Positions 33,285 to 61,377 of a stretch of DNA of 64,000 bases are shown piece after piece (the first letter of the stretch is position 1; each line of letters begins with the position of its first letter). A program made the position numbers and the translations under genes. The notes under the pieces were generated by a model. That model was not told the DNA's origin. It ran no database searches and saw nothing but the letters and a program-made list of their open reading frames with translations. The stretch spans positions 30,020-94,019 of the IMG/VR virus record IMGVR_UViG_3300003937_000144; one strand, written 5' to 3'. Source of the DNA: a virus.

Positions 33285-33292
33285 TATAAATA
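33285..33292 (+). promoter_or_regulatory. T4-type late promoter opening the radical SAM island
   Basis: TATAAATA right after the terminator and 5 nt before ATG 33298. Confidence 0.85.
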
Positions 33293-33297
33293 TTGTT

Positions 33298-34731
33298 ATG
33301 AAAACAAGTGATACTTTTTGTGCCCTTCCATGGGTACACCTCTCAACAAGACCGAATGGACATATGCGGGTATGTTGTACAGCAAATGCTTCCGGCGTTC
33401 AGAACCCAGACTCTCAAGATAAGATAGAATCAGACATTGGCATTTTAAAGAATGATGATGGTATGCCTTCTAATCTTGCCAACACATCATTAGCTGATGC
33501 TTGGAATAATAACTATATGAGAGGAACACGTAAAGCAATGATGCGTGGTGAAAAGCCTGCAAGTTGTATTAAATGTTATAAAGAAGAAGATGCAGGACAT
33601 AGATCCAAGAGGATGTGGGAGACCGATAAATGGATTAAGAAACTTGGTATAGAGTCAGTATTAGAAGGATATGATCCAGAGACTGGTACAGTGCCACCAC
33701 AAATCCGATACGTGGATCTTCGCCTTGGGTCTAAGTGTCAGTTAGCTTGTGTTATGTGTTCACCTAATGATTCATCGGGTTGGATAGTAGAACATAAAAA
33801 GATACATCCTAAATTAAAGAACGATAATCTAGAAAAAACAATGCGTTGGGAGAAGGAGACAGGTAAATTAGCCTTTGTAGGTGGTAGTTATGCGTGGCAT
33901 AAAAAGAATCCAATGTTCTTTGATGAACTCTATGAACAGATACCTAAGCTAAAACAATTATATTGGGCAGGTGGTGAACCACTTGTTATGAAAGAACATT
34001 ACTTTTTATTGCAACAAATCATTGATGATGGTTATGCAAGTGAGATTGAAGTGAGATATAACTCAAACGGAATGGAGTGGGAGCCTGAGCTCTTTGACTT
34101 ATGGAAGCATTTTAAGGAAGTTATATTTCATTTCTCTATTGATGACATGGAAGATAGGTTACATTATATAAGATATCCTGCAACATTCGACCATCTCACT
34201 ATGAAAATGAGGGAGTTAGATAATTATCCTCATGGAAACCTTAGGCTAACTACTGCTTATACTATACAGCTACTTAATATATGGTCTATACCAGATTTTG
34301 TTAGGTGGAAATTAACAAACAAATGGAAACTATTAAATCAATGGCCGCAAGGTGGAGGTATGATTGATAATCATTTGGCATATTGGCCGCCCCAATTAAA
34401 TTGTAAAGCATTGCCATTAGACTTTAAAAAGAAAGTAACTGAAAAGTATGAGGCTTTCTATCCATGGTTAGAAGAGAACTGGGAATTATCTGGCGCACCT
34501 AGCAAAGAATTATTCATGGAAAACAATTATACAATAAACCGTCTTAAAGGGATTGCATCATTTATGAATGCAGAAGATTGGTCAGTACGATTGCCTGAAA
34601 CTGCTGAATGGTGTTATAGAGTTGCAGAAGAAAGAAGTCTAGACTTTGATAAGATCTTTCCAGAGTTATCTTGGTTACAAGATTATCATACGCCCCACGA
34701 AGATTTTCCGTTAGTAATTAATACTTCTTAA
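33298..34731 (+). CDS. Radical SAM enzyme with N-terminal twitch/SPASM-like Cys domain (#1)
   Basis: CALPW...RVCC...CIKC; CQLACVMC (CxxxCxxC); WAGGEP; YNSNG. Confidence 0.92.
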   Translation: MKTSDTFCALPWVHLSTRPNGHMRVCCTANASGVQNPDSQDKIESDIGILKNDDGMPSNLANTSLADAWNNNYMRGTRKAMMRGEKPASCIKCYKEEDAGHRSKRMWETDKWIKKLGIESVLEGYDPETGTVPPQIRYVDLRLGSKCQLACVMCSPNDSSGWIVEHKKIHPKLKNDNLEKTMRWEKETGKLAFVGGSYAWHKKNPMFFDELYEQIPKLKQLYWAGGEPLVMKEHYFLLQQIIDDGYASEIEVRYNSNGMEWEPELFDLWKHFKEVIFHFSIDDMEDRLHYIRYPATFDHLTMKMRELDNYPHGNLRLTTAYTIQLLNIWSIPDFVRWKLTNKWKLLNQWPQGGGMIDNHLAYWPPQLNCKALPLDFKKKVTEKYEAFYPWLEENWELSGAPSKELFMENNYTINRLKGIASFMNAEDWSVRLPETAEWCYRVAEERSLDFDKIFPELSWLQDYHTPHEDFPLVINTS

Positions 34732-35398
34732 AAGCCCAGAATTTCTCTTTACACCACCAACATTTCTTACATGGCTTTGTAAACTTCTTTGTCTTATCAG
34801 CTTGGCCTTCACAAGATCTTGTTAAAGGAAATAAACCTTTCATTAAACCTTCGCTTTCAAAGCATCTAGCTATAAATTGTTTATCATGATTAGCAAATGG
34901 CTTTGAGTTATGTTTTCTATGTGTACCATCTCTGTATTTTGGTCTTTCATCGGTATACATATTATGCTCTTGCATAACAGGTCTTGCTGGGTTCTTTGTA
35001 ACAAATCCAATATTTTCTTTTAGCTTATACTTAGTTTTATTGTTATCATATACCTTTTGCCATTCTTCATCAAGAATTCTTAAACCAACTTTAGGTGGAG
35101 TAGGTACAACAATATGTTGAAACTTCTGGGTCTTAGTTAACTTCAATTCTTTTTCAACCCAAGCCATAATCTTTTTAGCGTGTGTAACATTCCAATCTTT
35201 AGCCGCTTGCTTCTGATAACCTGGATTATCGTTTTGGTCTCTCTTCCAAGTAGCAATAACAATCTTATTCTTAAGTTTATTCTCTTTAATATGTTTGGCT
35301 ATAACATATAAACCTAAAGCTGAATCAAGTCCACCGCTCACCCATAATAGTATGTTGCCAGTCTTTGGTAAATCTATTTGAACGTTCTTATAAATCAT
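34718..35398 (-). CDS. QueC-like PP-loop ATPase with C-terminal Zn site
   Basis: LLWVSGGLDSAL (PP-loop); LTRSCEG...PCKKCWWCKEK. Confidence 0.78.
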   Translation of the reverse strand: MIYKNVQIDLPKTGNILLWVSGGLDSALGLYVIAKHIKENKLKNKIVIATWKRDQNDNPGYQKQAAKDWNVTHAKKIMAWVEKELKLTKTQKFQHIVVPTPPKVGLRILDEEWQKVYDNNKTKYKLKENIGFVTKNPARPVMQEHNMYTDERPKYRDGTHRKHNSKPFANHDKQFIARCFESEGLMKGLFPLTRSCEGQADKTKKFTKPCKKCWWCKEKFWAFKKY

Positions 35399-35437
35399 AT
35401 AAATAATAATAAATTGATTAACATAACTTTATTTATA
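35398..35437. promoter_or_regulatory. Face-to-face late promoters (+ strand 35398-35405, - strand 35430-35437)
   Basis: TATAAATA and TATTTATA in the 38-nt gap between two divergent genes. Confidence 0.75.
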
Positions 35438-36780
35438 TGAAAAAAAATACCTTCTGTCCACTTCCTTGGAATTCTATTAACCTAAGAAATAACGGCGATA
35501 TGCGGATCTGCTGTAATACAAACTCGTATTCACCGCAACGTGGTATAATGAAGACTGAAGATGGTGAGACTTATAACGCTGGTAAGCATGACTTTAATGA
35601 AGCACGTAATGCACAGATATTAAAAGATGTTCGTGCAGATATGCTTAAGGGTGAATGGAATCCTGAGTGTGAACGTTGTAGACAAGAAGAGATAAACGGT
35701 ATACCGTCTCGTCGTCAATATGAGAATAATGATTGGGAAATAAAATTAGATACAGCTATTCCAATGACTCAGGAAGATGGAACTCTTGATGTAGATAAAC
35801 AACTAATAGAATTTATTGATATACGTTATGGTAATTTCTGTAATCTTAAATGCAGAATGTGTGGGCCAACTGATTCTCATATGTGGTACCCAGACTTTAT
35901 TAAACTTACAGACGGTAAGGTAACATCATATAAAGATACGCATACTCGTATACAACTTGAACAAACATCGACTGGCAAATGGACTACTGACCAATATGAT
36001 TGGTTTAAAGATGCTCCTATTTACTGGGACAACTTTGAAAAGTATGCGCATGATGCAAAGAAACTTTATATTGTTGGTGGTGAACCTTTAATTATTGCTG
36101 AACATGAGAAGAGTTTACAGTTATTAGTTGATGGTGGTAAAGCACATAACATAGAGATAGAGTATAATTCTAATCTAACAAATGTAACAAACAAATACAT
36201 AGAGCTATGGTCACAGTTTAAACAGATTCGTGTCGGTGCATCTGTTGATGGATTTGGTAAAGTATTTAATTATCAGCGTACGCCAGCTAAATGGGAATCT
36301 GTATATGAGCATATGAAAAAGCTAAATGATAATCGTGAAGTAAATCTAAAATGTTGGTTTACATTTACTGTTACACCTTATAATGTATATCATATGCCTG
36401 AGTTTATGAAATGGAAATTAGAAGAGAGTGAGTTAGATAGATATAATCCTATCGATGGTATGAGACCAACCATAACTCAACACATGTGTCACTCCCCTAA
36501 GTACTATAATATTAAAGTATTACCGCAACATCTTAAAGATGACATTGAAGATCATTATGAATTATACAAATCATGGGTTGACGGTAGTAATTATTCAGAT
36601 AAAGTTAAAGCACATTTCCATGAGGTATGTGATAGCACAATAAGATTTATGCAGTCCGAGTCTTATGAAAAAGATCACCTACAAGGATTCATAGATATAA
36701 CAAATAAATTAGATAAGATACGAGGTCAAGATGTAAGGGAAATTGTTCCTGAATATATCGAAATGTTCGATGCGCACTAA
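35437..36780 (+). CDS. Radical SAM enzyme, N-terminal twitch type (#2)
   Basis: CPLPW...RICC...CERC; CNLKCRMC; VGGEP. Confidence 0.92.
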   Translation: MKKNTFCPLPWNSINLRNNGDMRICCNTNSYSPQRGIMKTEDGETYNAGKHDFNEARNAQILKDVRADMLKGEWNPECERCRQEEINGIPSRRQYENNDWEIKLDTAIPMTQEDGTLDVDKQLIEFIDIRYGNFCNLKCRMCGPTDSHMWYPDFIKLTDGKVTSYKDTHTRIQLEQTSTGKWTTDQYDWFKDAPIYWDNFEKYAHDAKKLYIVGGEPLIIAEHEKSLQLLVDGGKAHNIEIEYNSNLTNVTNKYIELWSQFKQIRVGASVDGFGKVFNYQRTPAKWESVYEHMKKLNDNREVNLKCWFTFTVTPYNVYHMPEFMKWKLEESELDRYNPIDGMRPTITQHMCHSPKYYNIKVLPQHLKDDIEDHYELYKSWVDGSNYSDKVKAHFHEVCDSTIRFMQSESYEKDHLQGFIDITNKLDKIRGQDVREIVPEYIEMFDAH

Positions 36781-37957
36781 ACCATATTGTAAGGCTCCAT
36801 GGGTTGGATTATCTTATGTAGGAACTGAAGGTTGCAAGCCATGTTGTGAATGGAAAGGTGGCCAGTTCTTTGGCACTCATAAAGAATATATTGAATCAGA
36901 TTACTTAAAAGAATTTAAGGAAATGATGTACAATGATGATATGAATGAGGCATGTATAGAATGTATTCATAATGAAAAGATTCAAAAACTAGGCGGGTCG
37001 AGAAGACAGCGGTTCATGAAATATGATATTGATGGTGGATTAGTAAGGTTAGATTTTAGGGCTGGAAATAAATGTAATATGAAATGTAGAATGTGTGGTT
37101 CACATTCATCATCTCTTTGGGAAGACGAAGATAATAAGTGGGGATCAAATGTATATTTAGATCCACCTCATGTTATTCCAAGATTAGATACATCAGATGT
37201 ATATAATATCGATTTCACATCTTTGCAGAAAGTTATGATTCTAGGCGGTGAGCCTTCAGTTGATTTAGAAGTAAGAAAGTTTATAGATCATATTAAACAT
37301 CTAGATTGTTTTGTTGGTATAACTACTAATTGTTCCAACGCATCTGAGAAATGGTTTCGTTCATTAGAAACTATTAAAAAATTAGAGCTTGATTTGTCAA
37401 TAGATGGCTGTGGTCCTGTAGCAGAATATCAAAGGCATGGTGTTACTTGGGATAAGATCAAAACTAATCTATGGAAATATAAAGCATTATTTAATGGAGA
37501 TAAAGGTGCTGTTCAAATAGATGATATTATGTATCACAATTCACTTACGAGGTGGAAAGATGCAAATGGCACATGGGGTGATGCTCATATAAACTTTGCA
37601 GTAACTGCAATTAACTTTCCTATATTAGATACATGGTGGGATGAGTTAATGGATTTTGAAATACAAACATTTTTTAGTGTAGTTCATTTGCCATTGTCAC
37701 ATAGCATAAATGCAATACCAAAAGAATATTTAGATTATCAAATAGCTTGGTTAAAGAAATGGATTGATGACGGTAAAGCAAATAATATTAACCGTAAACA
37801 AGCTGCTGAGATGGCTATAAGTGTAATGGAAAATTCAAAGTATGATCTGTTTTGTCATGAACAATTTGTAAAGATAACAAAAGAATTGGATAAGCGAAGG
37901 GATGAAAATATATATGATTTAGATGAAAGGTTTGAGGATATAATGAATGAAAGATAA
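36770..37957 (+). CDS. Radical SAM enzyme, N-terminal twitch type (#3)
   Basis: CKAPW...PCC...CIEC; CNMKCRMC; LGGEP. Start taken at ATG 36770. Confidence 0.9.
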   Translation: MRTKPYCKAPWVGLSYVGTEGCKPCCEWKGGQFFGTHKEYIESDYLKEFKEMMYNDDMNEACIECIHNEKIQKLGGSRRQRFMKYDIDGGLVRLDFRAGNKCNMKCRMCGSHSSSLWEDEDNKWGSNVYLDPPHVIPRLDTSDVYNIDFTSLQKVMILGGEPSVDLEVRKFIDHIKHLDCFVGITTNCSNASEKWFRSLETIKKLELDLSIDGCGPVAEYQRHGVTWDKIKTNLWKYKALFNGDKGAVQIDDIMYHNSLTRWKDANGTWGDAHINFAVTAINFPILDTWWDELMDFEIQTFFSVVHLPLSHSINAIPKEYLDYQIAWLKKWIDDGKANNINRKQAAEMAISVMENSKYDLFCHEQFVKITKELDKRRDENIYDLDERFEDIMNER

Positions 37958-39149
37958 TGGTGTAATATGCATGTTGCCTTGGGTTCATACCACCGTGAGT
38001 ATGAAAAATACTTTGAGGCCTTGCTGTAGATTTAGAGTGGGTAGAGAAGATGAAGGTATAACCGCTGACTCTGAATCAGATATTAAAGATAAATTTAGAT
38101 GGTTACGTACAGAAATGTTAGCAGGCAGACCTGTAGAGAAGTGTTCATTGTGTTATCAACAAGGTGACAAGTCTATGAAGTGGACAGCTAATAAAGAATT
38201 TGATTTAGAAAATGCAGAGCTTACAGAAGATTTTGATAAGCTAAGGTCAGTAGAATTATCCCTAGATAACCTATGCAATCTTCAATGCAAGATGTGTGAT
38301 TCATTATTCTCAAGTAAGTTATATGATAGGGACAAGTATCTAATAGAGGTACATAATCTTAAAGGTAGAAACCCAACAAAGATACCTAAACAAAGAATTG
38401 AATTCCTCAAGGGCCTTGATATAGATTGGCATGCATTAGAACATATTAAAATTCTTGGTGGTGAACCATTCTTCTCACCTAATTTCCCTAAGCTAATTGA
38501 TTTTCTATTAGAACATTCTGAAGTAAAGAATGTCACATTAGAGATTGTAAGCAACTGTACAAATAGATTAGATCAAGATATGATTGATAAGTTAAATCAA
38601 TTTGGGTTTATAATACTTACATGTTCTCTTGATGGCTGTAATGAATTTAATACATATCAAAGATGGGGTTCACCTGGATGGGAGGAGACATTAGATACCT
38701 ATAAGTGGTATCATACAGTGTTAAACAATATGGTTAAAAAACATATACATTCCACATATACTATTCTTAATTTGTCTGGTCTTGCAAATGATATGAAATA
38801 CTGGGAAAATAATCACCCTGACTGGTCAGTGTCATTTAACTTTGTTACTACAGGTGAATACTCTCCATACATTGTTCCGACATGGTATAGAGATTGGATA
38901 TTAGAACAATGGGGAGATAAAGACAACGAGAGAATAACTTTAGCTCGTAAGATGTTACGAGAAAATCAGATTAAATATAAACCATGGAAGACATGGGGAT
39001 TAGCTATGTTAAAGCTTCATGCCATTGACGGCTATTATGATTCTGAATTAGGTGACTATTGTCCTGATCTAGAAATGTTATTATTAAAACACGATAAGAC
39101 ATATCAACATAATCAATACTATGAAACAATAGAGGACTTTGATGTTTGA
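37947..39149 (+). CDS. Radical SAM enzyme, N-terminal twitch type (#4)
   Basis: CMLPW...PCC...CSLC; CNLQCKMC; LGGEP. Confidence 0.9.
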   Translation: MKDNGVICMLPWVHTTVSMKNTLRPCCRFRVGREDEGITADSESDIKDKFRWLRTEMLAGRPVEKCSLCYQQGDKSMKWTANKEFDLENAELTEDFDKLRSVELSLDNLCNLQCKMCDSLFSSKLYDRDKYLIEVHNLKGRNPTKIPKQRIEFLKGLDIDWHALEHIKILGGEPFFSPNFPKLIDFLLEHSEVKNVTLEIVSNCTNRLDQDMIDKLNQFGFIILTCSLDGCNEFNTYQRWGSPGWEETLDTYKWYHTVLNNMVKKHIHSTYTILNLSGLANDMKYWENNHPDWSVSFNFVTTGEYSPYIVPTWYRDWILEQWGDKDNERITLARKMLRENQIKYKPWKTWGLAMLKLHAIDGYYDSELGDYCPDLEMLLLKHDKTYQHNQYYETIEDFDV

Positions 39150-40248
39150 ATTAGAAACATGCTTAGCTCCACAAGCATCCGTTACAGTAAGTCAAAAAGG
39201 TTATATAGCTCCATGTTGCCAGTTTAATCTTTGGCCGGAAGATGAATGGTTTAGTATATATGATTTAGATTCATTACATGAAGCACATGGTACAGATCGG
39301 TGGAACAAATATGATTCAGAGCTATCTAAATATGATGGCAGTAATAAATGTCGTACATGTATTCGTGAAGAAGAATCAGGGGCACATTCTTTAAGACAGA
39401 CTTGGAATGAAAAGATAAAAAAAGAAGATAAGCATATAGAACATTTAGAAATCTCATTAGACTTTACATGTAATATGATGTGTAGATCTTGTGGACCAAG
39501 TCAAAGTTCTAAATGGAATGGCAGTTCAATACTAGAAGAATTGCAAATGTTAAATATGCCAGATAATGAAGGTGCATATACTGCAATTAAAAACCCTAGA
39601 AATTATCAAGATAATATCAAACGTGTTCTTAGTAATACAGATCTATCGCACTTAAAAGAAGTAACATTAGTAGGTGGTGAACCATTATATTCTAAAAGCT
39701 TACCTTGGTTTCTTAGTTTATTGCATGAAGATGTTCGGCTTATAGTTGTTACTAACGGAAGTTTATTACCATCCGATGAGATGTTTTCTAAATTTAAATA
39801 TGTTAAATTCCAAGTATCTATTGATGCTATTGGAGATTTAGGAACTGCAATGAGAATGAAAGTTCCATTTGAAACCATTGATAAAAACATTAGACAGATG
39901 ATAAAGAAATATCATATTGGTGTCCACACAACCATTTCTGTACAGAATATAAATAGACTATACGAGCTTGATAAATATTGTGTAAATTTAGGACAGGAGA
40001 AGGTACAACATAGCGTTGCATTGCTGCACGATCCTTCATATATGAGAATAGATATCATACCTCTTGAAATTAGAATGAAGTGGTTAACTGATAATAAGGA
40101 AATAAATCCGTATTTAAATATGCCATATAGAGAATCAATAAGTGATGTGCAACACTTTTTAGAAAATATGGAAATAATGGATGATGAATCATCAATTAAA
40201 TTTAAAGATGCTAACCCAGAAATAATGGATATACTAAATGAAATGTAG
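39139..40248 (+). CDS. Radical SAM enzyme, N-terminal twitch type (#5)
   Basis: CLAP...PCC...CRTC; CNMMCRSC; VGGEP; VTNGS. Confidence 0.9.
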   Translation: MMFELETCLAPQASVTVSQKGYIAPCCQFNLWPEDEWFSIYDLDSLHEAHGTDRWNKYDSELSKYDGSNKCRTCIREEESGAHSLRQTWNEKIKKEDKHIEHLEISLDFTCNMMCRSCGPSQSSKWNGSSILEELQMLNMPDNEGAYTAIKNPRNYQDNIKRVLSNTDLSHLKEVTLVGGEPLYSKSLPWFLSLLHEDVRLIVVTNGSLLPSDEMFSKFKYVKFQVSIDAIGDLGTAMRMKVPFETIDKNIRQMIKKYHIGVHTTISVQNINRLYELDKYCVNLGQEKVQHSVALLHDPSYMRIDIIPLEIRMKWLTDNKEINPYLNMPYRESISDVQHFLENMEIMDDESSIKFKDANPEIMDILNEM

Positions 40249-42600: not shown

Positions 42601-42602
42601 TG

Positions 42603-52373: not shown

Positions 52374-52374
52374 T

Positions 52375-53022
52375 ATGAATTTAGATATTGAGCACTACGT
52401 CTATAAGGCGAAATGGATTGACGACTCTATTTGTGATGAAGCCATTAAAGTACTTAATGAGGAAAACACCTGGCTACCATTCCCTAAAGATGTAATCAAT
52501 GCATATCCCGATGCTCCAAGAGCACAAGACGGTATTAAAGGATCTACACTCAGTATTGATTGGGCACAATTCTTAGGTGATCCTAGTATACCTGAACAAG
52601 ATAGAAATTATGGTTTAGCCCATTTAAAAAATCAAGATGTATTAAATAAAGTTAGATCTTGTATGAAGGCAGGATTAGATAATTATATTCACGAATATAT
52701 GAAGGACATAGAGTGGTATGATTACTATACAGACTTTACTGATCCTAAATTTATGAAGTATACTGAAAGTAATGACATGATGGAACATTGCGATCATGTA
52801 AGATATATATTTGATGGTAAAAAGAAAGGCATTCCTACAGTTTCTATTGTAGGTAATTTAGGTGATGACTTTGAAGGTGGTGCAATAAGATTTTGGGATA
52901 AGACAGATTACTATATGAAAAAAGGTGAGCTAATGTTTTTTCCTAGTAATTTTTTGTATCCTCATAGGGTTAGAACAACAACTAAAGGTTTAAGATATTC
53001 TCTTGTGAGTTGGGTATGGTAA
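52375..53022 (+). CDS. Prolyl-4-hydroxylase-like 2OG-Fe(II) oxygenase
   Basis: HCD, DDFEGG and FPSNFLYPHRV...GLRYSLVSW. Confidence 0.88.
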   Translation: MNLDIEHYVYKAKWIDDSICDEAIKVLNEENTWLPFPKDVINAYPDAPRAQDGIKGSTLSIDWAQFLGDPSIPEQDRNYGLAHLKNQDVLNKVRSCMKAGLDNYIHEYMKDIEWYDYYTDFTDPKFMKYTESNDMMEHCDHVRYIFDGKKKGIPTVSIVGNLGDDFEGGAIRFWDKTDYYMKKGELMFFPSNFLYPHRVRTTTKGLRYSLVSWVW

Positions 53023-55402: not shown

Positions 55403-56064
55403 AAAAAATAGTTGCTGTAGCATTTAGTTATGCAGAAAATTCTATGAACATGAGAGGCTTAACCCTCATGGATGAATTGTTATTTTTTGATGGCCAATAT
55501 GATATGAATGATTTTAATATGCCTCTTTGTAATTCAAATAAATCAGATGGAAATGTTCCAGAAGGTGTGAATAAATTCATAAAGGTTATGAGAGATGCTG
55601 ACATATTAGTGTTTGCTATACCTGAAGCTACAGGACATTATGCGGCTGCGTTCAAGAATGCAATGGATTGGTTAATATGTGAGTCTAAGTTTAATAGTGA
55701 TATTGCAGTTGATGGTGCATTTTATAATAAACCAGTATGGGTTGTAACATTCACTCCTGTGATTCCCGCGGTAACTCCGGGTGAAAGTTATGAGATAGGT
55801 GCTGGAGGCCGACACTTTGAAATGACAAGACACCTATTAAATGAGAAGATGGGTGGAGCTGTGCATCAAGAGATGTTTGTGTTTAATGATGGATGGCAAC
55901 ATTGCAGACCAGGAAATGTTGATTGGGTAAGAGATGCTTGTAATGAAATACTAAGAGCAATAGATTTTGATCCTGGTGAAAGGGCACCATCATATTCTAT
56001 GAAGGATAGACCAGTAAAGTGGCTTAAACGATACGAAGAGTGGGATGCTTCATGGAAGGAATAG
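55399..56064 (+). CDS. NAD(P)H-dependent FMN reductase (flavodoxin fold)
   Basis: ADILVFAIPEATGHYAAAFKNAMDW and NKPV resemble the PEYN..LKNAIDW signature. Confidence 0.8.
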   Translation: MKKIVAVAFSYAENSMNMRGLTLMDELLFFDGQYDMNDFNMPLCNSNKSDGNVPEGVNKFIKVMRDADILVFAIPEATGHYAAAFKNAMDWLICESKFNSDIAVDGAFYNKPVWVVTFTPVIPAVTPGESYEIGAGGRHFEMTRHLLNEKMGGAVHQEMFVFNDGWQHCRPGNVDWVRDACNEILRAIDFDPGERAPSYSMKDRPVKWLKRYEEWDASWKE

Positions 56065-56630
56065 CCGAATACATTAATGTCGATTATAATAAAGAGTATC
56101 TAATACGAAAGCATAACGATGCGCGCGGTGCACATGGTAAAGAGTATATCGAATGTGGAACCGAATCTCACATCCTTAGAGATAACCCAGACTATTACAG
56201 ACAATGGGATCATATACTTACAATCATGTGTGGTGTTCATATAGGTATGTGCGAACATGGTACAGGTTTTAATTTAAATGGAACTCTAAAAGCCGGGGTA
56301 CCGCCCCATATAGATTTTGATGATAGAGAAGGTAATGGATTTAATTTATTATTACCTATGTTTGGTATAGCTAAGATTAATATATACGAAACCATACCTA
56401 GTCAATTAGAATTTAGACATGGCATGACCCATTGGAATATGTTACAAGATAAATATCCACCAAGAAAGATAGGTGAAATAGTTGTAGATAAGCCTGTCTT
56501 ATTAGATACAATGTACTTACATGATGTACAAGTAATCGATGCGCCTCGTGCAATATTTTGTGTTGCTTGGAGAGGTATAAATAAGACATATAATGAATTT
56601 AAAGACCATGCCGAAAAAACACTTACCTGA
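56052..56630 (+). CDS. Putative 2OG-Fe(II)/cupin oxygenase
   Basis: VPPHIDFD...NLLLP...PVLLDTMYLHDV...PRAI. Confidence 0.55.
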   Translation: MEGIAEYINVDYNKEYLIRKHNDARGAHGKEYIECGTESHILRDNPDYYRQWDHILTIMCGVHIGMCEHGTGFNLNGTLKAGVPPHIDFDDREGNGFNLLLPMFGIAKINIYETIPSQLEFRHGMTHWNMLQDKYPPRKIGEIVVDKPVLLDTMYLHDVQVIDAPRAIFCVAWRGINKTYNEFKDHAEKTLT

Positions 56631-58032
56631 TCCAGAAAAGTATGAGCTAGGCGAGCCATATACCCATCTAGGAATACCATTCCCAAGGTTACCTGCTACC
56701 TTTGAAAAGAATTCAGTTCCATTAAAAGAAGATTACAAAATGAGATCTATGGATTACTTAGATACTCCTGAAGCTTATTCGTTATTTGAAAAGCAAGCTG
56801 ACCTTATAATTGAAAATGGTTGGAAGGGTATTATTGATGTTGGTTGTAGACATGGTCCAGTAGTTGATATATTAATGGATAAAGGATATACTGATTTCAA
56901 CTATATGGGATTTGATACATCTGCTCAACCTATTGAATATGCTCAAGAGACATGGCAAGAGTTTGATAATATAGAATATCGTGTTATGTCTTGGAATGAA
57001 TTTGCGCCAGCTGGTGCAAGCAAAGGTCATAAGCAGCTTGGTCAAAACAATAAGAAAGAAACTGATGAGGAATGGTGGTCTAGAGCCGGTGTTAAATTCA
57101 AAGTAGACTTCCATGTTGATGTTATGATATGGTCAGGCGTTTTATTATATGAACCAACATATCATTTATGGTTCTTTCATAATATGCATAATGCGTATGG
57201 TGCACAAAATGCAATTATACAAGAACCTTTAAAAGACCAAAGGCCAGAATGCTGGAGAGAAGATTTAGAATTAAATACTATTGAGCATAGACTTCATATG
57301 TATAAAACTAAATATTATGAATATGAATCTTGGGAATTTGATTTAGATATATTTAGTGGTAGAAGAATAATATCACGTGTTAAATTATGGCAGGATGGTG
57401 ATTCTAAATGGGAAGATTGGGTAGATACTCATGGTCAGCTAGCCGCTAATCCACACACTGAGATACTTCCATCAGGCTATAAAGTAATACCATATATATT
57501 TCGAGGTAAATTAAATTTTGAATTAAGCCAAAGGGATCAGACTTTATGTCAAGTAGCTTTAGAGAAAATGTTTAAAGAGAGACATAGTCATAGGTTAGCA
57601 GATAATTATAGCAGAGATAAATTGCATTTAGGCAAAATGTATATGTACAACTTTGTATTTGATGGTGATGAACCAGTCTTCTGCTCGGGTGTACAAAATG
57701 TTACTGATAAAGTTGTTAGAGTATTCTCTAGATACTTTGCTTTTGAAAAGTATAAGACAGATGGCACCACACTATTAGAGAAGAATGACAACTTTGAAGA
57801 ATTACAATATGCTATGCATTGGATCCGTGATAGAATTATATTTTGGAGTAGAGATAAATCTCCTAAGTTCTTTGAAAGGTTAAAAGTTAAAAATGAATTG
57901 TTTTCAGAGTGGACTGTACATCCTACAAAGATTAATATAATCTATCCTAATAATGAACAATATATATTTTATACACCAAAGGTTCCAGCTGAATGGTGGA
58001 AAAATGGTAACTATGATGGATTTTTTAAATGA
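56608..58032 (+). CDS. Class I SAM methyltransferase fused to an uncharacterised (possibly GNAT-like) domain
   Basis: IIDVGCRHG, YMGFDTS and WSGVLLY; second domain PVFCSG...VRVFSRYF...IFWSR. Confidence 0.7.
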   Translation: MPKKHLPDPEKYELGEPYTHLGIPFPRLPATFEKNSVPLKEDYKMRSMDYLDTPEAYSLFEKQADLIIENGWKGIIDVGCRHGPVVDILMDKGYTDFNYMGFDTSAQPIEYAQETWQEFDNIEYRVMSWNEFAPAGASKGHKQLGQNNKKETDEEWWSRAGVKFKVDFHVDVMIWSGVLLYEPTYHLWFFHNMHNAYGAQNAIIQEPLKDQRPECWREDLELNTIEHRLHMYKTKYYEYESWEFDLDIFSGRRIISRVKLWQDGDSKWEDWVDTHGQLAANPHTEILPSGYKVIPYIFRGKLNFELSQRDQTLCQVALEKMFKERHSHRLADNYSRDKLHLGKMYMYNFVFDGDEPVFCSGVQNVTDKVVRVFSRYFAFEKYKTDGTTLLEKNDNFEELQYAMHWIRDRIIFWSRDKSPKFFERLKVKNELFSEWTVHPTKINIIYPNNEQYIFYTPKVPAEWWKNGNYDGFFK

Positions 58033-59090
58033 AGTTCTATGTTAACGGCACCCGTCGAGGGTTAGGCAAATATATCTATGATAGATTGAATGTAGTCGAG
58101 ACTCTTGAAGAATGTGATGTATTCATTAATTGTAAGCATGATGGATTCCTTCAGGTGGACTTATTATATAAAGCTTGTGAATTAGGCAAGAGAGTTATCA
58201 ACATAGGTTCATATGCATCTGACTGGATATTCCATCCACAACAAAAGAAATATACTTATGCTATTGAGAAGAAAGCATTAAGAGATGCTAACTCACAACT
58301 GTTTGATAATGGTTATAATACTACATGTTTAAACTTAGGTTATTTGGATAGTGAGAGTGTAGAACATATCACATCAAATAAGATGACACATAGATCTGTT
58401 GTAAATAATATTGAATGGATACTCACACATCCTCATCGTGTAAAAGAAATAACTATAACACCTAATGAATCAAAGAAAGAAAATAAGTACAATGACCAGG
58501 TCGTTAAAGAAATAGGAACTCTAGCATATGATGAACGTATAACAATATCAGATAACCTACGTGACTATTCAACCATGTATGCTAACTGTTATAAACAATT
58601 ACACCAGTTCGGTCAATATGATTTAGAAAAGGTTAGAGCTGAAGTAGCTGTGTTATTAGAGGCACATGAATTACATGATAATCAAATTATGTTACAATCA
58701 TTGGATGGTAAAGACTTCTATACTGGTATCACTCAAGTAAGTAAGATCCCTGAGGGTATAGTTGAGAATGATTTTGATAAGCTCAACGTTCATGAGGATT
58801 CAGAGATAGCTAGATTCATAAATGATTTAGGTATAACAAGGGCAAGATTACTTGTCTTACCTGAGAAAACTTGTTATACATTCCATTTTGATCCGACTTC
58901 ACGAATACATTTAGTGGTAAAAACAAATGAATGGGCCTTTATGGCTGATGAAAAGTGGAGATTATTCCATATGCCTGATGATGGTTATCCATGGTATGTT
59001 GACACTACATATCCACACACCGCAATTAACTCAGCACTTGAAGACCGCATACATATAATGGGTCGTGCACCGCAAAAACCTTATAAATAG
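58029..59090 (+). CDS. Fusion of a compact SDR-like Rossmann domain and an Asp/Asn beta-hydroxylase-like domain
   Basis: VNGTRRGLG, DVFINC, VINIGS, YAIEK (YxxxK); then RARLLVL..YTFHFD..RIHL...DTTYPHTAIN...RIH. Confidence 0.75.
   Translation: MKFYVNGTRRGLGKYIYDRLNVVETLEECDVFINCKHDGFLQVDLLYKACELGKRVINIGSYASDWIFHPQQKKYTYAIEKKALRDANSQLFDNGYNTTCLNLGYLDSESVEHITSNKMTHRSVVNNIEWILTHPHRVKEITITPNESKKENKYNDQVVKEIGTLAYDERITISDNLRDYSTMYANCYKQLHQFGQYDLEKVRAEVAVLLEAHELHDNQIMLQSLDGKDFYTGITQVSKIPEGIVENDFDKLNVHEDSEIARFINDLGITRARLLVLPEKTCYTFHFDPTSRIHLVVKTNEWAFMADEKWRLFHMPDDGYPWYVDTTYPHTAINSALEDRIHIMGRAPQKPYK
59082..59089 (+). promoter_or_regulatory. T4-type late promoter
   Basis: TATAAATA 5 nt before ATG 59095. 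Confidence 0.8.
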
Positions 59091-59094
59091 AAAT

Positions 59095-59541
59095 ATGATT
59101 GAGAAAATACTAGCGGGGACTCTCGCACTTTCGGTAGGTGGATGTAGCATGTTAGGCGGTTTCAACGCACTAGATCCCAAAAACCTTATTAAGACAGCAG
59201 CAACAACTGGTGTCACATACGTAATAGCAGGCCCCTTAGCAGCCGCGGGCAATGCTGCAACATCTATAGCAGTTGATTCAGTTCTACCTGATGACAAACC
59301 TGCAATAGGTGATATTGAGGCTGGAAACGAAGAACAATTGAGGGCATATATGTTTCAAAACCTAACACAAACAGTACTATACGCGGTAATCGGATTCTTA
59401 ATATTTACTAATGTTGTTGGACCATGGGCTGCACAGCGTAGAGCAAAGAGAAAAGCTGAGCAAGTAGCAGAAGACCAACGTCGTAAAGATAAATATGACG
59501 CAATGAAAGCTGAATTAACTGCGCGTCGAAATAAAGAATAG
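59095..59541 (+). CDS. Lipoprotein with a C-terminal transmembrane helix (u-spanin-like topology)
   Basis: MIEKILAGTLALSVGG-C signal/lipobox; TM TVLYAVIGFLIFTNVVGPW; basic tail. Confidence 0.6.
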   Translation: MIEKILAGTLALSVGGCSMLGGFNALDPKNLIKTAATTGVTYVIAGPLAAAGNAATSIAVDSVLPDDKPAIGDIEAGNEEQLRAYMFQNLTQTVLYAVIGFLIFTNVVGPWAAQRRAKRKAEQVAEDQRRKDKYDAMKAELTARRNKE

Positions 59542-59658: not shown

Positions 59659-60357
59659 ATGTTTAGACAAATGATTAAGAAGTCTATCCAAAAATCTCAG
59701 CATTGCAATCGCAACTGGGATTTAACACAAGAGATGCCTCAGGCAGATATCGATCTTATGATTGAAGCTGCTACACAGTGTCCTACTAAGCAAAACCTTA
59801 ACCACTATAAAACCCACGTAATAACAGACCGTGCTATAATCGAACAGATTGAAGCTGCGACTGCTATTCCTGATTTTGGTTCTGAAGACAATGACTTCAG
59901 AGGCTATGATGGCGTTCAGGGTTATGATGGAGGTTTTGGTCCAACTAACTCACAACTATCTGCTCATGCAGTCTTCGCGTTTGTTGAAGATGAGCCATGG
60001 CAAATGGGTGAGGAAGTTCGTGAGCCTTCAGAGTCTACTAAGACTATGCATGGCAAAACAGGTGACGGCAAATTGGCTGAGTCTTATAAAGAAGACAGAG
60101 ACCAAGCTGTTGGTATTGCTGCAGGATATTTAAACCTAGTATCAACTATGATGGGTTATTCTACTGGTTGTTGCAAGTGTTTTCATATGGACAAAGTTAA
60201 CAAAGCATTGGGAGTACCGGAAGGTAAGAACACTGTATTGTTAATGGGTATTGGTATTGCTGATCCTAGTCGTCAAAGACAGGAACATCATTCTGATGCA
60301 AGCTTTAGCTTCGGTTCTCATAAGAATATGAGAAAGTTCGAAACTCACTACGCTTAA
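59659..60357 (+). CDS. Nitroreductase-family flavoprotein
   Basis: SQHCNRNWD, ATQCPTKQN, VGIAAGYLNLVSTMMGYSTGCC and LLMGIG; strong SD TAAGGAG. Confidence 0.8.
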   Translation: MFRQMIKKSIQKSQHCNRNWDLTQEMPQADIDLMIEAATQCPTKQNLNHYKTHVITDRAIIEQIEAATAIPDFGSEDNDFRGYDGVQGYDGGFGPTNSQLSAHAVFAFVEDEPWQMGEEVREPSESTKTMHGKTGDGKLAESYKEDRDQAVGIAAGYLNLVSTMMGYSTGCCKCFHMDKVNKALGVPEGKNTVLLMGIGIADPSRQRQEHHSDASFSFGSHKNMRKFETHYA

Positions 60358-60367
60358 ACAGTAACAC

Positions 60368-60395
60368 AAAGCCAGCTTCGGCTGGCTTTTTTTTT
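60368..60395 (+). terminator. Intrinsic terminator with a UUCG tetraloop
   Basis: AAAGCCAGC-TTCG-GCTGGCTTT followed by a T run. Confidence 0.92.
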
Positions 60396-60398
60396 CTC

Positions 60399-60406
60399 TA
60401 TAAATA
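60399..60406 (+). promoter_or_regulatory. T4-type late promoter
   Basis: TATAAATA after the terminator, 5 nt before ATG 60412. Confidence 0.8.
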
Positions 60407-60411
60407 ATAAT

Positions 60412-60564
60412 ATGAATCATATCACTAGTCGTAATATAGATAAGAAAGTACAATTAAAAAAGTTAAAAGAAAAACTACATGTTGCTGGACATGATAGAAG
60501 CAACAAAAAAGTTAACATGGTAAAAGCCTTAAAAAATTTAATGAAGAGGGAAAAAAGAAAATGA
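60412..60564 (+). CDS. Small highly basic protein (50 aa), not in ORF track
   Basis: MNHITSRNIDKKVQLKKLKEKLHVAGHDRSNKKVNMVKALKNLMKREKRK*; ATGA overlap with the next gene. Confidence 0.65.
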   Translation: MNHITSRNIDKKVQLKKLKEKLHVAGHDRSNKKVNMVKALKNLMKREKRK

Positions 60565-61238
60565 TACAAGCATATGACGAAACTTGGCAGTTCTATATTA
60601 GACAACTGACTCTAACTTCGAGACGTCCGTTTGTTCAACCTTATCCTATCATTCGTAGTTTATATGATTTTTTAAAAAGCACTGGTGATACCCCTGTATT
60701 AGATATTGGATGTGGAGAAAATAATCTAAAGCATTTCTTTCCTAATATAGATGGCATGGACATGACATGCGAAGCTGATATAAAATCTTATGTTGATAGC
60801 CAATCCTTTAAAGACGTACCTAAATATAAGTATGGCGTTGCAGTAAATGTTATGAACTGGCCAGATGGAAATACTATCGACAGTAAAATTAAATTAGCAT
60901 TATCAAAATGTGATAAAGTGTGGTTCAGCATGAATGACTTGCCTACTTTAATAATGCCAATAGAAGAATATAAAACAAAAGAAGCGTGGGAAAAATATGG
61001 TAAGGTAGAATCTTTTTGGCATGGTCAAGATCCAGAAACTAAAAAAGATATTCGTGACTATTTAGAAAATGATCTCTTGTATTCACAAATGATGAAAATG
61101 CCACATAGAGATGGAGTCCAAGCAACGAGAGGCTTAACGCAACTCCAACAGGATGTTGCAGAGATCTATACTAATGCCGTAGACCATGATGCATATTATG
61201 GTGTAGTTCGTGTATTAATAAGTGCAGAAAAAGATTAA
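60561..61238 (+). CDS. Class I SAM-dependent methyltransferase-like protein
   Basis: PVLDIGCGEN...IDGMD. Confidence 0.65.
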   Translation: MIQAYDETWQFYIRQLTLTSRRPFVQPYPIIRSLYDFLKSTGDTPVLDIGCGENNLKHFFPNIDGMDMTCEADIKSYVDSQSFKDVPKYKYGVAVNVMNWPDGNTIDSKIKLALSKCDKVWFSMNDLPTLIMPIEEYKTKEAWEKYGKVESFWHGQDPETKKDIRDYLENDLLYSQMMKMPHRDGVQATRGLTQLQQDVAEIYTNAVDHDAYYGVVRVLISAEKD

Positions 61239-61377
61239 AGGCATTCCACCCCATAGTAAATTTCCGTGTAGTTGTGGACGTTCACCTACTGGTAGATGTT
61301 GTGGCTGGCATAAGCTAACAGAAGAAGAATATATGATTAAGTTTAAAGAATTTAAAGAGCTCGATAAATTTCAATAA
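61222..61377 (+). CDS. Small CDGSH-like iron-sulfur/zinc-binding protein (51 aa), not in ORF track
   Basis: GTG start: MQKKIKGIPPHSKFPCSCGRSPTGRCCGWHKLTEEEYMIKFKEFKELDKFQ*. Confidence 0.65.
   Translation: MQKKIKGIPPHSKFPCSCGRSPTGRCCGWHKLTEEEYMIKFKEFKELDKFQ

What the first reader, a model, noticed from the sequence alone, without database searches (positions are those of the whole stretch)
33285..61377. Late-promoter-driven, ~28-kb phage tailoring-enzyme cluster beside the tail fibres: candidate virion/surface modification pathway
Seen: directly after the fibre-operon terminator, a TATAAATA opens about 30 tightly packed, mostly overlapping genes. They encode 9 radical SAM enzymes, 2 QueC-like ATPases, 4 TauD-like and at least 4 other 2OG-Fe(II) oxygenase domains, 3-4 methyltransferases, a glycosyltransferase, a PLP enzyme, a desaturase and an SDR domain. 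Apparent support functions are present too: FMN reductase, nitroreductase-family flavoprotein and a CDGSH-like protein. Late-promoter motifs recur at 33285, 35398/35430, 51725, 59082, 59542 and 60399. Established: SPASM/twitch radical SAMs, Asp/Asn and prolyl hydroxylases often act on peptides or proteins; T4 nucleotide-metabolism genes are expressed before late genes. As I recall, enzyme-rich hypervariable islands are reported next to structural genes in marine myophages, with unknown chemistry. Inference: a self-contained biosynthetic cluster that decorates virion proteins or their glycans during assembly, or makes a small molecule late in infection, rather than scattered auxiliary metabolic genes.
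Basis: partly seen in the sequence, partly recalled or inferred. Interest (0 to 1): 0.9.

Follow-up and report, generated by a model that had tools for sequence, protein, structure and literature searches.

The report
Late phage radical-SAM and oxygenase tailoring island
An uncultured ocean phage related to the big SAR11 and OM43 phages carries, right behind its tail-fibre genes, a conserved 27-kb block of about 32 enzyme genes, including nine radical SAM enzymes, that most likely builds or edits an unusual sugar-containing structure late in infection; nobody has tested what it makes.

Summary
Between two strong terminators (33257-33276 and 60368-60389) lie 31 co-directional ORFs and one inverted ORF. 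26 of 32 junctions overlap, and TATAAATA sits just before several start codons.

Confirmed by HMM, fold or motif: 9 radical SAM enzymes (6 in NCBIfam N_Twi_rSAM), 2 PP-loop ATPases, 4 TauD-like proteins (all HxN instead of HxD), 3-4 further cupin/2OG proteins, a GT-A glycosyltransferase, a PLP-type protein, FMN reductase and nitroreductase. The SDR, CDGSH and most methyltransferase calls rest on motifs only.

The whole island is syntenic and under purifying selection in three related IMG/VR contigs. The radical SAM cassette also travels alone in other phage contigs. Its four 'constant' genes lie contiguously in a Bdellovibrionales chromosome, beside the same accessory families. That supports one pathway rather than scattered genes.

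The product and target remain unknown. Recurrent, but not universal, links to glycosyltransferases favour glycan or glycoconjugate tailoring (about 0.4). No precursor peptide or deazaguanine pathway was found.

Pelagimyophage papers mention such radical SAM cassettes only in passing. This scan has already found similar arrays on other phage DNA, so this is a variant of a known but uncharacterised kind.

The parts
33257..33292 (+). Intrinsic terminator of the fibre genes (33257-33276), followed by the late-promoter motif TATAAATA (33285-33292) 5 nt before the first ATG.
33298..34731 (+). Radical SAM A, N-terminal-twitch type (N_Twi_rSAM, 380 bits). 'Constant' slot: 94-95% aa identity in G002/G003 and 49% in the Bdellovibrionales locus L036.
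34718..35398 (-). Inverted PP-loop ATPase with SGGLDS and a C-terminal CKKCWWC. It is QueC-like by motif only. TATAAATA lies on the minus strand at 35430.
35437..36780 (+). Radical SAM B, N_Twi_rSAM (364 bits). 'Constant' slot, with 927 metagenomic homologues at E<=1e-5. TATAAATA at 35398.
36743..41431 (+). Four further N_Twi_rSAM paralogues (36743, 37947, 39139, 40238). These are 'swappable' slots: 23-60% aa identity in G002, 25-89% in G003.
41410..42600 (+). Radical SAM with an N-terminal CX3CX2C and a C-terminal Cys module (C...CC...CxxxC). Variable slot.
42594..43499 (+). Second PP-loop ATPase (SGGMDS, CHWCWWC). Weak matches to TilS-N and PP-loop models.
43499..44548 (+). Radical SAM with a C-terminal twitch-like module. 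'Constant' slot: 86-89% in relatives, 43% in L036.
44539..46004 (+). Two paralogous proteins of unknown family with an N-terminal W-x-PG-x-GGD motif. Lineage-specific, with few homologues.
45979..47109 (+). Radical SAM and the most conserved gene of the island: 90-93% in relatives, 64% in the Bdellovibrionales locus. Its nearest Atlas clusters are almost all viral.
47226..47450 (+). Small conserved protein of about 65-75 aa, with TATAAATA at 47240. There are 29 cluster representatives. In some of them it is fused to a longer protein with a GT-B-like motif; that reading is my own and motif-based.
47365..48174 (+). GT-A fold glycosyltransferase, GT8/GT24-like, with an invariant DxD (D112, D114).
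48161..49362 (+). Two class-I-methyltransferase-like proteins (48161, 48595) sharing an NxxCE(H/K)M motif. No HMM or PDB match; the Atlas gives only a methyltransferase lead. The 48595 family recurs beside the radical SAM core in L005, L010, L013 and L036.
49353..49997 (+). Small membrane di-iron desaturase/hydroxylase-like protein (FA_desaturase, 28.9 bits, just under the cut-off).
49979..50803 (+). Short fold-type-I PLP-enzyme-like protein. The Lys of F-S-x-S-K and the Asp of L-D-C-x-Y are invariant in 7 homologues, including a bacterial one.
50782..51729 (+). TauD-like protein 1, with WHTN in place of HxD; the distal His and Arg are kept.
51725..53022 (+). TATAAATA at 51725, then an Asp/Asn-beta-hydroxylase-type cupin (51738) and a 2OG-Fe(II)_Oxy_3 oxygenase (52375). 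Both have HxD.
53010..55402 (+). TauD-like proteins 2-4 (WHVN, WHAN, WHSN).
55399..56630 (+). NADPH-dependent FMN reductase (55399), and a 196-aa protein with an HxD motif and no family match (56040).
56576..59090 (+). TATAAATA at 56576. Then a 479-aa protein with sub-threshold SAM-methyltransferase matches (56593), and a 353-aa protein whose C-terminus is an Asp/Asn-hydroxylase-type cupin (58029). The N-terminal 'SDR' call is not supported.
59082..59541 (+). TATAAATA, then after 5 nt the ATG at 59095. The product is a lipoprotein-signal protein with a C-terminal membrane helix, probably not biosynthetic. It is 85-88% conserved in G002.
59659..60389 (+). Nitroreductase-family flavoprotein (59659-60357), with a 36.5% homologue inside the Bdellovibrionales radical SAM cluster. 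It is followed by the strong terminator at 60368-60389 that ends the block.
60399..61238 (+). Separate small late unit: TATAAATA at 60399, a 50-aa basic ORF (60412) and a 225-aa protein with a VLDIGCG motif (60561) but no family match.

Best explanation
Window 33285-60389 is one late-transcribed, terminator-bracketed enzyme block. It sits in the host-recognition island of an uncultured T4-like marine myovirus of the pelagimyophage/Melnitz type.

It has two layers. The first is a portable radical SAM/PP-loop cassette (33.3-47.1 kb). Four of its radical SAM genes are 'constant' and five are 'swappable'. The second is an accessory set: a GT-A glycosyltransferase, methyltransferase-like proteins, a PLP-type protein, a membrane di-iron enzyme, four TauD-like proteins with HxN, three or four cupin/2OG hydroxylases, and two flavoproteins.

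My best reading is as follows. Late in infection these enzymes act on one substrate class, an unusual sugar or glycoconjugate. A host nucleotide-sugar is transferred by the glycosyltransferase. The sugar or its carrier is then edited by radical (H-abstraction) chemistry, by ATP-dependent amidation/ligation from the PP-loop enzymes, and by hydroxylation, methylation and amino-group chemistry. The FMN reductase and nitroreductase-type flavoprotein supply electrons. The product would be displayed on the virion (fibres or baseplate) or on the infected cell's envelope.

Shown: gene content, intact catalytic motifs, purifying selection, synteny, promoter and terminator motifs, and recurrent co-occurrence of the families.

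Inferred: that they form one pathway, that the substrate is a sugar, and where the product ends up.
For: Coherence.
- The full island is syntenic in G001 (99%), G002 and G003 at 38-95% aa identity (two swappable slots 23-25%), with dN/dS mostly 0.06-0.3.
- The radical SAM cassette alone is collinear in 15 IMG/VR contigs.
- The four constant radical SAM genes (33298, 35437, 43499, 45979) are contiguous in a Bdellovibrionales chromosome at 42-64% identity. Homologues of 48595, 49979, 58029, 59659 and a QueC-like PP-loop lie in the same bacterial clusters.

Sugar link.
- ORF 47365 is a confident GT-A model (pLDDT 89). Foldseek matches UGGT, LgtC, LARGE1 and glycogenin at E 1e-8 to 1e-5, and the DxD is invariant.
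- The triad 47365/48161/48595 also flanks the cassette in L013, and 47365 flanks it in L020.
- A weak second GT8-like ORF lies at 24711.
- In the bacterium, N_Twi_rSAM pairs sit in apparent operons with two GT2 genes (L038) and next to a PMT_2/ArnT-type GT-C (L039).
- Pelagimyophage islands are reported to be rich in GT8 genes (PMC7029224).

Timing.
- TATAAATA is enriched and placed 5-30 nt before starts. Strong terminators bracket the block. Sigma-70-like sites are not enriched.

This scan's earlier agents reached the same sugar reading on other phage DNA. That is a lead, not independent support.
Against: - The glycosyltransferase link is not universal. Four other contigs with the cassette (G004, G005, G010, G011) show neither GT2 nor a 47365-like gene in the DNA available.
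- No sugar-activating or sugar-nucleotide enzyme (NTP_transferase, epimerase/dehydratase) is in the 94-kb record.
- The fold of a radical SAM member matches peptide maturases (CteB, SuiB, anSME) and sugar enzymes (DesII, BlsE) equally weakly, with TM about 0.3.
- Asp/Asn-hydroxylase and P4H-type oxygenases often act on proteins. TauD-type enzymes usually act on small molecules.
- Late timing rests on motifs only. Near-identical contigs in oligo-dT RNA libraries cover fibre genes and cassette alike but do not prove transcription.
Confidence: 0.4

Rival explanations
1. The island is a protein or peptide modification system of the RiPP-like or virion-protein-maturase type. The SPASM/twitch-type radical SAM enzymes and the Asp/Asn- and prolyl-type hydroxylases would directly modify side chains of fibre or other virion proteins, for example the Asp/His-rich decapeptide repeats of the adjacent fibre. 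The glycosyltransferase would add a sugar to the protein.
For: - Sub-threshold NCBIfam matches of the radical SAM enzymes include many peptide maturases.
- The Foldseek top hits CteB, SuiB, anSME and SkfB are peptide or protein maturases.
- Asp_Arg_Hydrox and 2OG-FeII_Oxy_3 families are present.
- The island directly follows two fibre genes, one with a long Asp/His-rich repeat.
- The best structural matches of 47365 include protein-glycosylating enzymes (UGGT, glycogenin, GlyE).
- Iyer et al. 2010 predicted that beta-hydroxylase clusters modify tail-collar and collagen-like proteins (PMC2938197).
Against: - No RRE/PqqD-type domain was found in any Pfam scan.
- An all-against-all search of ORFs of 25-130 aa across 19 loci returned only shadow frames and no conserved small precursor.
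- The same cassette lies in a bacterial chromosome beside GT2/GT-C genes rather than fibre genes.
- Fibre genes and cassette are not linked in the more distant contigs.
Confidence: 0.2
2. The same chemistry is aimed at the host rather than the virion. The island remodels the infected cell's envelope (lipopolysaccharide, capsule or membrane lipids) to block superinfection or to prepare lysis, as proposed for glycosyltransferases in pelagimyophage islands.
For: - PMC7029224 argues that island glycosyltransferases change the host O-chain.
- A membrane di-iron desaturase/hydroxylase-like protein is present. By my own knowledge, the Asp_Arg_Hydrox family also includes the lipid A hydroxylase LpxO and the ornithine-lipid hydroxylase OlsC.
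- A late lipoprotein gene closes the block.
- The bacterial homologues lie in the chromosome next to an ArnT/PMT_2-type enzyme.
Against: Exclusion functions are usually needed early, whereas only late-type promoter motifs are seen. No flippase, polymerase or lipid-carrier gene was found in the island.
Confidence: 0.18
3. The island makes a diffusible small molecule (an amino-acid-derived or nucleoside-like natural product, or a cofactor) that is released at lysis.
For: - By my own knowledge, TauD/clavaminate-type oxygenases and HisC-like PLP enzymes typically act on free small molecules.
- PP-loop, radical SAM and flavoprotein combinations occur in nucleoside and cofactor pathways.
- Iyer et al. 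proposed secondary-metabolite synthesis for cyanophage dioxygenase arrays.
- No acceptor protein has been identified.
Against: There is no scaffold-forming enzyme (NRPS, PKS, ATP-grasp, cyclase) and no exporter in the phage island. The island is placed among structural genes.
Confidence: 0.12
4. The island hypermodifies DNA or nucleotides, for example by 7-deazaguanine-type or thymidine-type chemistry, using the QueC-like ATPases, radical SAM enzymes and the PLP enzyme.
For: The ATPases have the PP-loop and a C-terminal Cys cluster as in QueC. There are weak radical SAM matches to QueE, MoaA and viperin.
Against: - No TGT/DpdA, QueD or GTP cyclohydrolase I is in the 94-kb record, which covers about half the genome.
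- The QueC model is not reached.
- The promoters are late-type.
- About 25 family copies are spread over a bacterial chromosome, which fits poorly with DNA modification.
Confidence: 0.05
5. The genes have no common pathway. The block is a dump of independently useful auxiliary genes and paralogue expansions in a hypervariable region.
For: - The region is known to be hypervariable.
- Gene gain and loss occurs between relatives: TauD copy number differs, 52375 is absent in G002, and a 44539 paralogue is inserted in G003.
- The tail end (lipoprotein, basic ORF) is clearly heterogeneous.
Against: The same families co-occur in different orders in unrelated phage contigs and in a bacterium. The junctions overlap and a single terminator pair brackets the block.
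Confidence: 0.05

Closest known systems
Host recognition cluster (HRC) of pelagimyophages (Zaragoza-Solas et al. 2020, PMC7029224)
   Same: A T4-like marine myovirus with a large island in the structural region after the VrlC-type gene. [quoted passage not shown]
   Different: The paper only mentions the radical SAM cassettes. It does not describe their family, the constant/swappable structure, the PP-loop partners, the TauD(HxN) block or the bacterial counterpart. This phage is only 36-40% identical in gp6 to HTVC008M and Melnitz. The downstream gp14 border is not on the contig.
NCBIfam NF033640, N_Twi_rSAM (twitch domain-containing radical SAM protein; function unknown)
   Same: Six of the nine radical SAM proteins exceed the curated cut-off. 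They carry the N-terminal C...CC...CxxC module before CX3CX2C.
   Different: The family has no characterised member and no solved relative by sequence. Three radical SAM genes of the cassette (41410, 43499, 45979) are outside the family, and 41410 and 43499 carry the Cys module at the C-terminus.
Tandem dioxygenase arrays of cyanomyophages (Syn9, ten tandem 2OG/JmjC genes; Iyer et al. 2010, PMC2938197)
   Same: Several unrelated 2OG/cupin oxygenases lie in a row in a T4-like marine phage, with beta-hydroxylase-type members. They were predicted to make or modify peptides, fibre-like proteins or metabolites.
   Different: Here the oxygenases are coupled to a nine-gene radical SAM cassette. The four TauD-type members have Asn in place of the iron-binding Asp/Glu. 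No halogenase or JmjC member was detected.
Sugar-tailoring radical SAM enzymes of natural-product pathways (BtrN, DesII, BlsE)
   Same: By my own knowledge these are radical SAM enzymes, some with a twitch-type auxiliary cluster, that oxidise, deaminate or decarboxylate sugars. DesII and BlsE are among the structural matches.
   Different: The matches are weak (TM about 0.3, core only) and no better than those to peptide maturases. There is no sequence-level relationship and the domain order is permuted.
QueC (7-cyano-7-deazaguanine synthase)
   Same: PP-loop SGGxDS and a C-terminal CxxCxxC cluster.
   Different: The proteins score below the Pfam QueC cut-off (15.8 against 22 bits). No QueD, QueE, FolE or TGT partners are found in the record.

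Membership tests
Radical SAM superfamily (PF04055) | CX3CX2C motif for the SAM-binding [4Fe-4S] cluster | tested here: met
   All nine proteins have one intact CX3CX2C.
Radical SAM superfamily (PF04055) | Score over the Pfam gathering cut-off (29.5 bits) | tested here: met
   Seven of nine are over the cut-off. ORFs 36743 (28.4 bits) and 41410 (26.7 bits) fall just under, but 36743 passes NF033640.
NCBIfam NF033640 N_Twi_rSAM | Full-length score over the curated cut-off (170 bits) | tested here: met
   ORFs 33298, 35437, 36743, 37947, 39139 and 40238 score 380, 364, 172, 188, 180 and 227 bits. ORFs 43499 (61 bits) and 45979 (37 bits) do not pass, and 41410 has no match.
NCBIfam NF033640 N_Twi_rSAM | Auxiliary Cys-rich twitch-like module N-terminal to the radical SAM core | tested here: met
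   The pattern C(7/8)...C-C(25-27)...CxxC(66-93) precedes CX3CX2C in five of the six members. ORF 40238 has a reduced set (C3, C20, C64, C67). Pfam SPASM matches residues 8-94 of 33298 below the cut-off.
TauD/TfdA dioxygenases (PF02668) | Score over the gathering cut-off (27 bits) | tested here: met
   The four proteins score 89, 73, 69 and 67 bits.
TauD/TfdA dioxygenases (PF02668) | 2-His-1-carboxylate iron site (HxD/E ... H) | tested here: not met
   All four copies and five orthologues in G002/G003 have W-H-x-N. The Asn aligns with the Asp of WHTD in RdpA (6d1o). The distal His-Arg-Arg is kept.
QueC (PF06508) | Family score over the cut-off, and deazaguanine pathway partners present | tested here: not met
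   ORF 34718 scores 15.8 bits against a cut-off of 22; 42594 matches only PP-loop and TilS-N models weakly. No TGT, PTPS/QueD or GTP cyclohydrolase I is in the 94-kb record.
PP-loop ATP pyrophosphatase superfamily | SGGxDS motif near the N-terminus | tested here: met
   SGGLDS at residue 21 of 34718 and SGGMDS at residue 36 of 42594.
GT-A glycosyltransferases (GT8/GT24-like) | GT-A fold with a DxD metal/nucleotide-sugar motif | tested here: met
   The AF2 model has pLDDT 88.9 and pTM 0.89. Foldseek gives probability 1.0 to UGGT, LgtC, LARGE1 and glycogenin (TM 0.5-0.63). D112 and D114 are invariant in 28 homologues. The Pfam GT8 model does not match this ORF.
Fold-type I PLP enzymes (HisC/aminotransferase-like) | Schiff-base Lys in an S-x-S-K motif, and the Asp that binds the pyridine nitrogen | tested here: inconclusive
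   K171, D144 and R179 are invariant in 7 homologues. There is no Pfam, PHROG or PDB match and no structure model was made.
RiPP biosynthetic cluster | Precursor peptide gene and an RRE/leader-binding domain | tested here: not met
   No RRE/PqqD domain appears in the Pfam scans. The small-ORF all-against-all search over 19 loci gave only shadow ORFs. Very short or hypervariable precursors could escape this search.
Pelagimyophage host recognition cluster | Hypervariable island in the structural module between the VrlC gene and gp14, holding the fibres | tested here: inconclusive
   A VrlC-type 1702-aa gene (phrog_358) and baseplate wedge genes lie upstream, and the fibres lie directly before the island. 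The contig ends at 64000 before any gp14, so the downstream border is unseen.
T4-type late transcription unit | TATAAATA at -10 of mapped late transcription starts | not testable with these tools
   The motif is present and enriched. No transcription-start or time-course data exist; the RNA-library contigs carry no strand or start information.

The most novel reading that the evidence does not exclude
Marine T4-like phages use a late-expressed, modular radical SAM pathway to put a heavily edited sugar decoration on their own tail fibres or baseplate. The four constant radical SAM enzymes would make a common core. The swappable paralogues and the unusual 2-His-1-Asn TauD-like oxygenases would diversify it, so that the virion surface chemistry itself varies and helps determine host range, alongside the fibre protein sequence. 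The same enzyme kit in Bdellovibrionales predators would then decorate their own surface structures.
Probability: 0.22. Interest if true: 0.85.

Novelty: new variant of a known kind. Interest (0 to 1): 0.6.

Why it matters
About 15% of this phage's estimated ~190-kb genome (CheckV puts the 94-kb record at half) goes to one enzyme block whose core families (N-terminal-twitch radical SAM enzymes, their PP-loop partners, Asn-variant TauD proteins) have no characterised member. Yet homologues are abundant in ocean metagenomes: 927 proteins at E<=1e-5 for a single member.

If the product is a virion or envelope decoration, it would add a chemical layer to host recognition and phage-phage competition in the most abundant marine bacteria. 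It would also give enzymologists a defined, co-evolving set of radical SAM, 2OG and PLP enzymes with a testable substrate class.

If the block is only a mosaic of unrelated genes, it is an ordinary hypervariable island.

Tried and rejected
The 150-kb and 337-kb contigs that carry close homologues could therefore not be inspected.
2. Megablast of the island against 50,697 phage records found nothing. tblastn of radical SAM A found only 4 weak hits, so cultured phages lack the cassette.
3. A profile of the N_Twi family against PDB sequences gave no match. The AF2 model (pLDDT 72) searched with Foldseek gave only weak, core-only matches to peptide maturases and sugar enzymes alike. This does not discriminate between them.
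4. The precursor-peptide hunt by small-ORF clustering returned only alternative-frame shadows.
5. PHROGs matched none of ten unknown island proteins, apart from one weak hit to a family of unknown function for 49979. Pfam at E<=1 gave nothing for the CDGSH-like ORF, the SDR part, 48161, 48595, 60561 or 56040. PDB sequence searches for 49979, 56593, 42594 and a 48595 profile were empty.
6. Pfam scans of bacterial neighbours were mostly blank. Only the GT2, PMT_2, MFS, GDSL and B12-radical-SAM hits were informative.
7. RNA libraries: four oligo-dT marine runs of one study hold >=99% identical short contigs over both the fibre genes and the cassette. They are contigs only and may be DNA carry-over, so they give no evidence on timing or level.
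8. The deazaguanine and sugar-nucleotide partner searches in the 94-kb record were negative, but the record is only about half a genome.
9. Co-variation of island content with fibre alleles cannot be tested. Only four contigs share the fibre genes.

Full report
**What the DNA is.** The window is bases 30020-94019 of a 94-kb linear IMG/VR virus record that CheckV rates as about half a genome. Upstream of the finding lie T4-type baseplate genes and a 1702-aa VrlC-type gene. These include tube cap, gp6-like and gp7-like wedge proteins. The gp6 homologue is 40% identical to Methylophilales phage Melnitz and 36% to Pelagibacter phage HTVC008M. Cyanomyophages come next at about 32%. Downstream, on the other strand, are a CHASE2 adenylate cyclase and a curlin-repeat protein. 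This layout fits the published description of pelagimyophages. Those phages have a large 'host recognition cluster' after VrlC that holds fibres and many enzymes. [quoted passage not shown]

**Check of the observation.** A terminator at 33257-33276 is followed by TATAAATA at 33285 and an ATG at 33298.
- From there to 61238 I count 33 ORFs. 26 of 32 junctions overlap and only three gaps exceed 20 nt.
- A second strong terminator at 60368-60389 follows the nitroreductase gene. Nothing comparable lies inside the block.
- The transcription block is therefore 33285-60389. A small separate late unit follows at 60399-61238.
- TATAAATA occurs 27 times against 12.8 expected. The composite TAAATA-N5-ATG occurs 10 times against 3.2 expected, six of them at gene starts in or beside the island.
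- Sigma-70-like sites are not enriched.

| Call | Status |
|---|---|
| 9 radical SAM enzymes | intact CX3CX2C in all; six pass NF033640 N_Twi_rSAM |
| 2 PP-loop ATPases | SGGxDS and CxxCWWC present; below QueC cut-off |
| 4 TauD proteins | over cut-off |
| Cupin/2OG proteins | two by HMM, 58029 C-terminus just under the Asp_Arg_Hydrox cut-off, one more (56040) by motif |
| FMN reductase, nitroreductase | over cut-off |
| Desaturase-like protein | just under cut-off |
| SDR, CDGSH-like ORF, three of four methyltransferases | no HMM, PHROG or PDB support |

**Two calls I could strengthen.**
- ORF 47365 had no family match. With 28 homologues it gave a confident model (pLDDT 89) with a GT-A fold. 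Its closest structures are UGGT, LgtC, LARGE1 and glycogenin, and it has an invariant DxD.
- ORF 49979 keeps the Schiff-base Lys, the Asp and an Arg of fold-type I PLP enzymes in all seven homologues, including a bacterial one.

**Is it one unit?**
- The radical SAM protein 35437 has 927 metagenomic homologues at E<=1e-5. The IMG/VR scan with it returned 19 loci.
- In 15 of those loci the 33.3-47.1 kb cassette is collinear.
- The whole 28 kb is syntenic in three contigs: G001 at 99%, and G002 and G003 at 38-95% aa identity (23-25% for the most divergent swappable slot). There are small gains and losses.
- dN/dS is mostly 0.06-0.3.
- The identities are mosaic. Radical SAM genes 33298, 35437, 43499 and 45979 stay at 86-95%. 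The genes between them drop to 23-60% in G002. I call these 'constant' and 'swappable' slots.
- More distant contigs (G004, G005) carry only the cassette, plus 48595-like, PLP-like and cupin genes. They have no TauD block.

**The bacterial counterpart.** Genome scans found few bacterial relatives, mostly in Bdellovibrionota.
- One Bdellovibrionales MAG has about 25 N_Twi_rSAM copies over cut-off, spread across about nine loci on two large contigs.
- In one locus the four 'constant' genes are contiguous at 42-64% identity.
- The same clusters hold homologues of the nitroreductase (36.5%), the PLP-like protein, the 48595-like protein and the cupin, plus a QueC-like PP-loop and a B12-radical SAM.
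- This recurrence of the same families in different orders and in different replicons is the main argument for a shared pathway.

**What it does.** No tool result identifies the substrate.

*Evidence for a sugar or glycoconjugate:*
- the GT-A enzyme inside the island;
- the triad 47365/48161/48595 flanking the cassette in L013, and 47365 in L020;
- a weak GT8-like ORF at 24711;
- two GT2 genes in an apparent operon with an N_Twi_rSAM pair in the bacterium, and a PMT_2/ArnT-type enzyme beside another pair;
- fusions of the small 47097-type domain to proteins with a GT-B-like motif, which is my own motif-based reading.

*Evidence against a sugar substrate:*
- four cassette-bearing contigs show no GT2 or 47365-like gene in the available DNA;
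- no sugar-activating enzyme is present in the record.

*Peptide and DNA alternatives:*
- A peptide substrate is not excluded, but no precursor or RRE was found.
- A DNA modification role is unlikely, because no TGT, QueD or FolE is present and the promoters are late-type.
- The structure model of one N_Twi member matches peptide maturases and sugar enzymes equally weakly.

I therefore put glycan or glycoconjugate tailoring at about 0.4. The destination (virion or host envelope) stays open.

**Comparison with what is known.**
- The island is a member of the pelagimyophage-type host recognition cluster as far as that can be tested. The downstream border is off the contig.
- Its oxygenase part resembles the tandem dioxygenase arrays of cyanophage Syn9 (PMC2938197).
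- The radical SAM family is catalogued but uncharacterised. No paper in the library names NF033640.
- Earlier notes of this scan describe similar N-twitch radical SAM arrays behind fibre genes in several other phage genomes, with the same tentative sugar reading. The kind is therefore not new to the scan.
- Specific to this example are the size (nine radical SAM genes and at least eight oxygenase-type genes in one block) and the constant/swappable structure. So are the Bdellovibrionales counterpart of the constant four and the uniform HxN substitution in all TauD copies and their orthologues.

**Limits.**
- All comparison contigs are fragments.
- Timing is inferred from motifs.
- The RNA-library contigs cannot show transcription.

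Noticed in passing
window 50782-55402: All four TauD-like proteins have W-H-x-N where the family has HxD, and so do five orthologues in two related contigs. The Asn aligns with the Asp of WHTD in RdpA. The distal His-Arg-Arg is retained. This is either a conserved 2-His-1-Asn iron site or a loss of iron binding, and it would be worth biochemical testing.
   Followed up: partly
window 59082-59541: TATAAATA is followed after 5 nt by an ATG at 59095. The 148-aa product has a lipoprotein signal (LSVGGC) and a C-terminal membrane helix with a basic tail, a layout like a unimolecular spanin or an exclusion lipoprotein. It is 85-88% conserved in G002. The GTG start at 59065 is probably wrong.
   Followed up: partly
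window 33287, 51727, 59084, 60401, 35422(-), 63188(-): The late-promoter motif sits exactly 5 nt before the ATG at six gene starts (TAAATA-N5-ATG; 10 matches in the window against 3.2 expected). This leaves no room for a Shine-Dalgarno leader. It suggests leaderless or near-leaderless late messages, or a dual role for the motif.
   Followed up: partly
window 61352-63930 (minus strand): A CHASE2-adenylate/guanylate cyclase (612 aa, TATAAATA at 63196) lies downstream of a curlin-repeat protein. The curli-type gene matches the curli operon reported for pelagimyophages; I did not see the cyclase mentioned there.
   Followed up: partly
window 61222-61377: The 51-aa 'CDGSH-like' ORF has no Pfam match at E<=1. 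Its Cys/His spacing is one residue short of the CDGSH motif. It overlaps the ends of two converging genes. I would not count it as a gene without more evidence.
   Followed up: partly
G006 (Bdellovibrionales MAG): L034-L039: This 3.8-Mb predator-type MAG carries about 25 N_Twi_rSAM copies over cut-off in about nine chromosomal loci. Some lie beside GT2, PMT_2, GDSL-lipase, B12-radical SAM and QueC-like genes. This is a large, unexplained paralogue expansion in a bacterium.
   Followed up: partly
L020 (contig NYWG01000227.1, binned as Verrucomicrobiales): This 18-kb contig holds a phage-type radical SAM cassette (60% identity to 33298 and 35437, with the same order) plus the 47365-like glycosyltransferase. 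It is probably a phage contig mis-binned into the MAG.
   Followed up: no
window 47226-47450; P0247, P0252, P0256: The small conserved domain (core motif FKADHDSxxFYKNVIxWY) is usually a free-standing protein of 70-90 aa. In some metagenomic proteins it is fused to the N-terminus of proteins of 190-350 aa. The C-terminus of those proteins carries a motif resembling the GT9/GT-B nucleotide-sugar site.
   Followed up: partly
window 31357-32166 (fibre gene 30964-33243): The fibre directly before the island has a long array of roughly 10-residue repeats rich in Asp, Ser and His (for example DSIDAEHYAAGSVDGTAIAN). It is a conceivable substrate for the hydroxylases, but this is untested.
   Followed up: no
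G004 (127 kb) and G005 (100 kb) IMG/VR contigs: These contigs carry the radical SAM cassette (10-11 family matches each) but share no structural genes with the window at BLASTP E<=1e-4. CheckV rates them at 26-35% complete, which implies much larger phages. The cassette therefore crosses phage lineages.
   Followed up: partly
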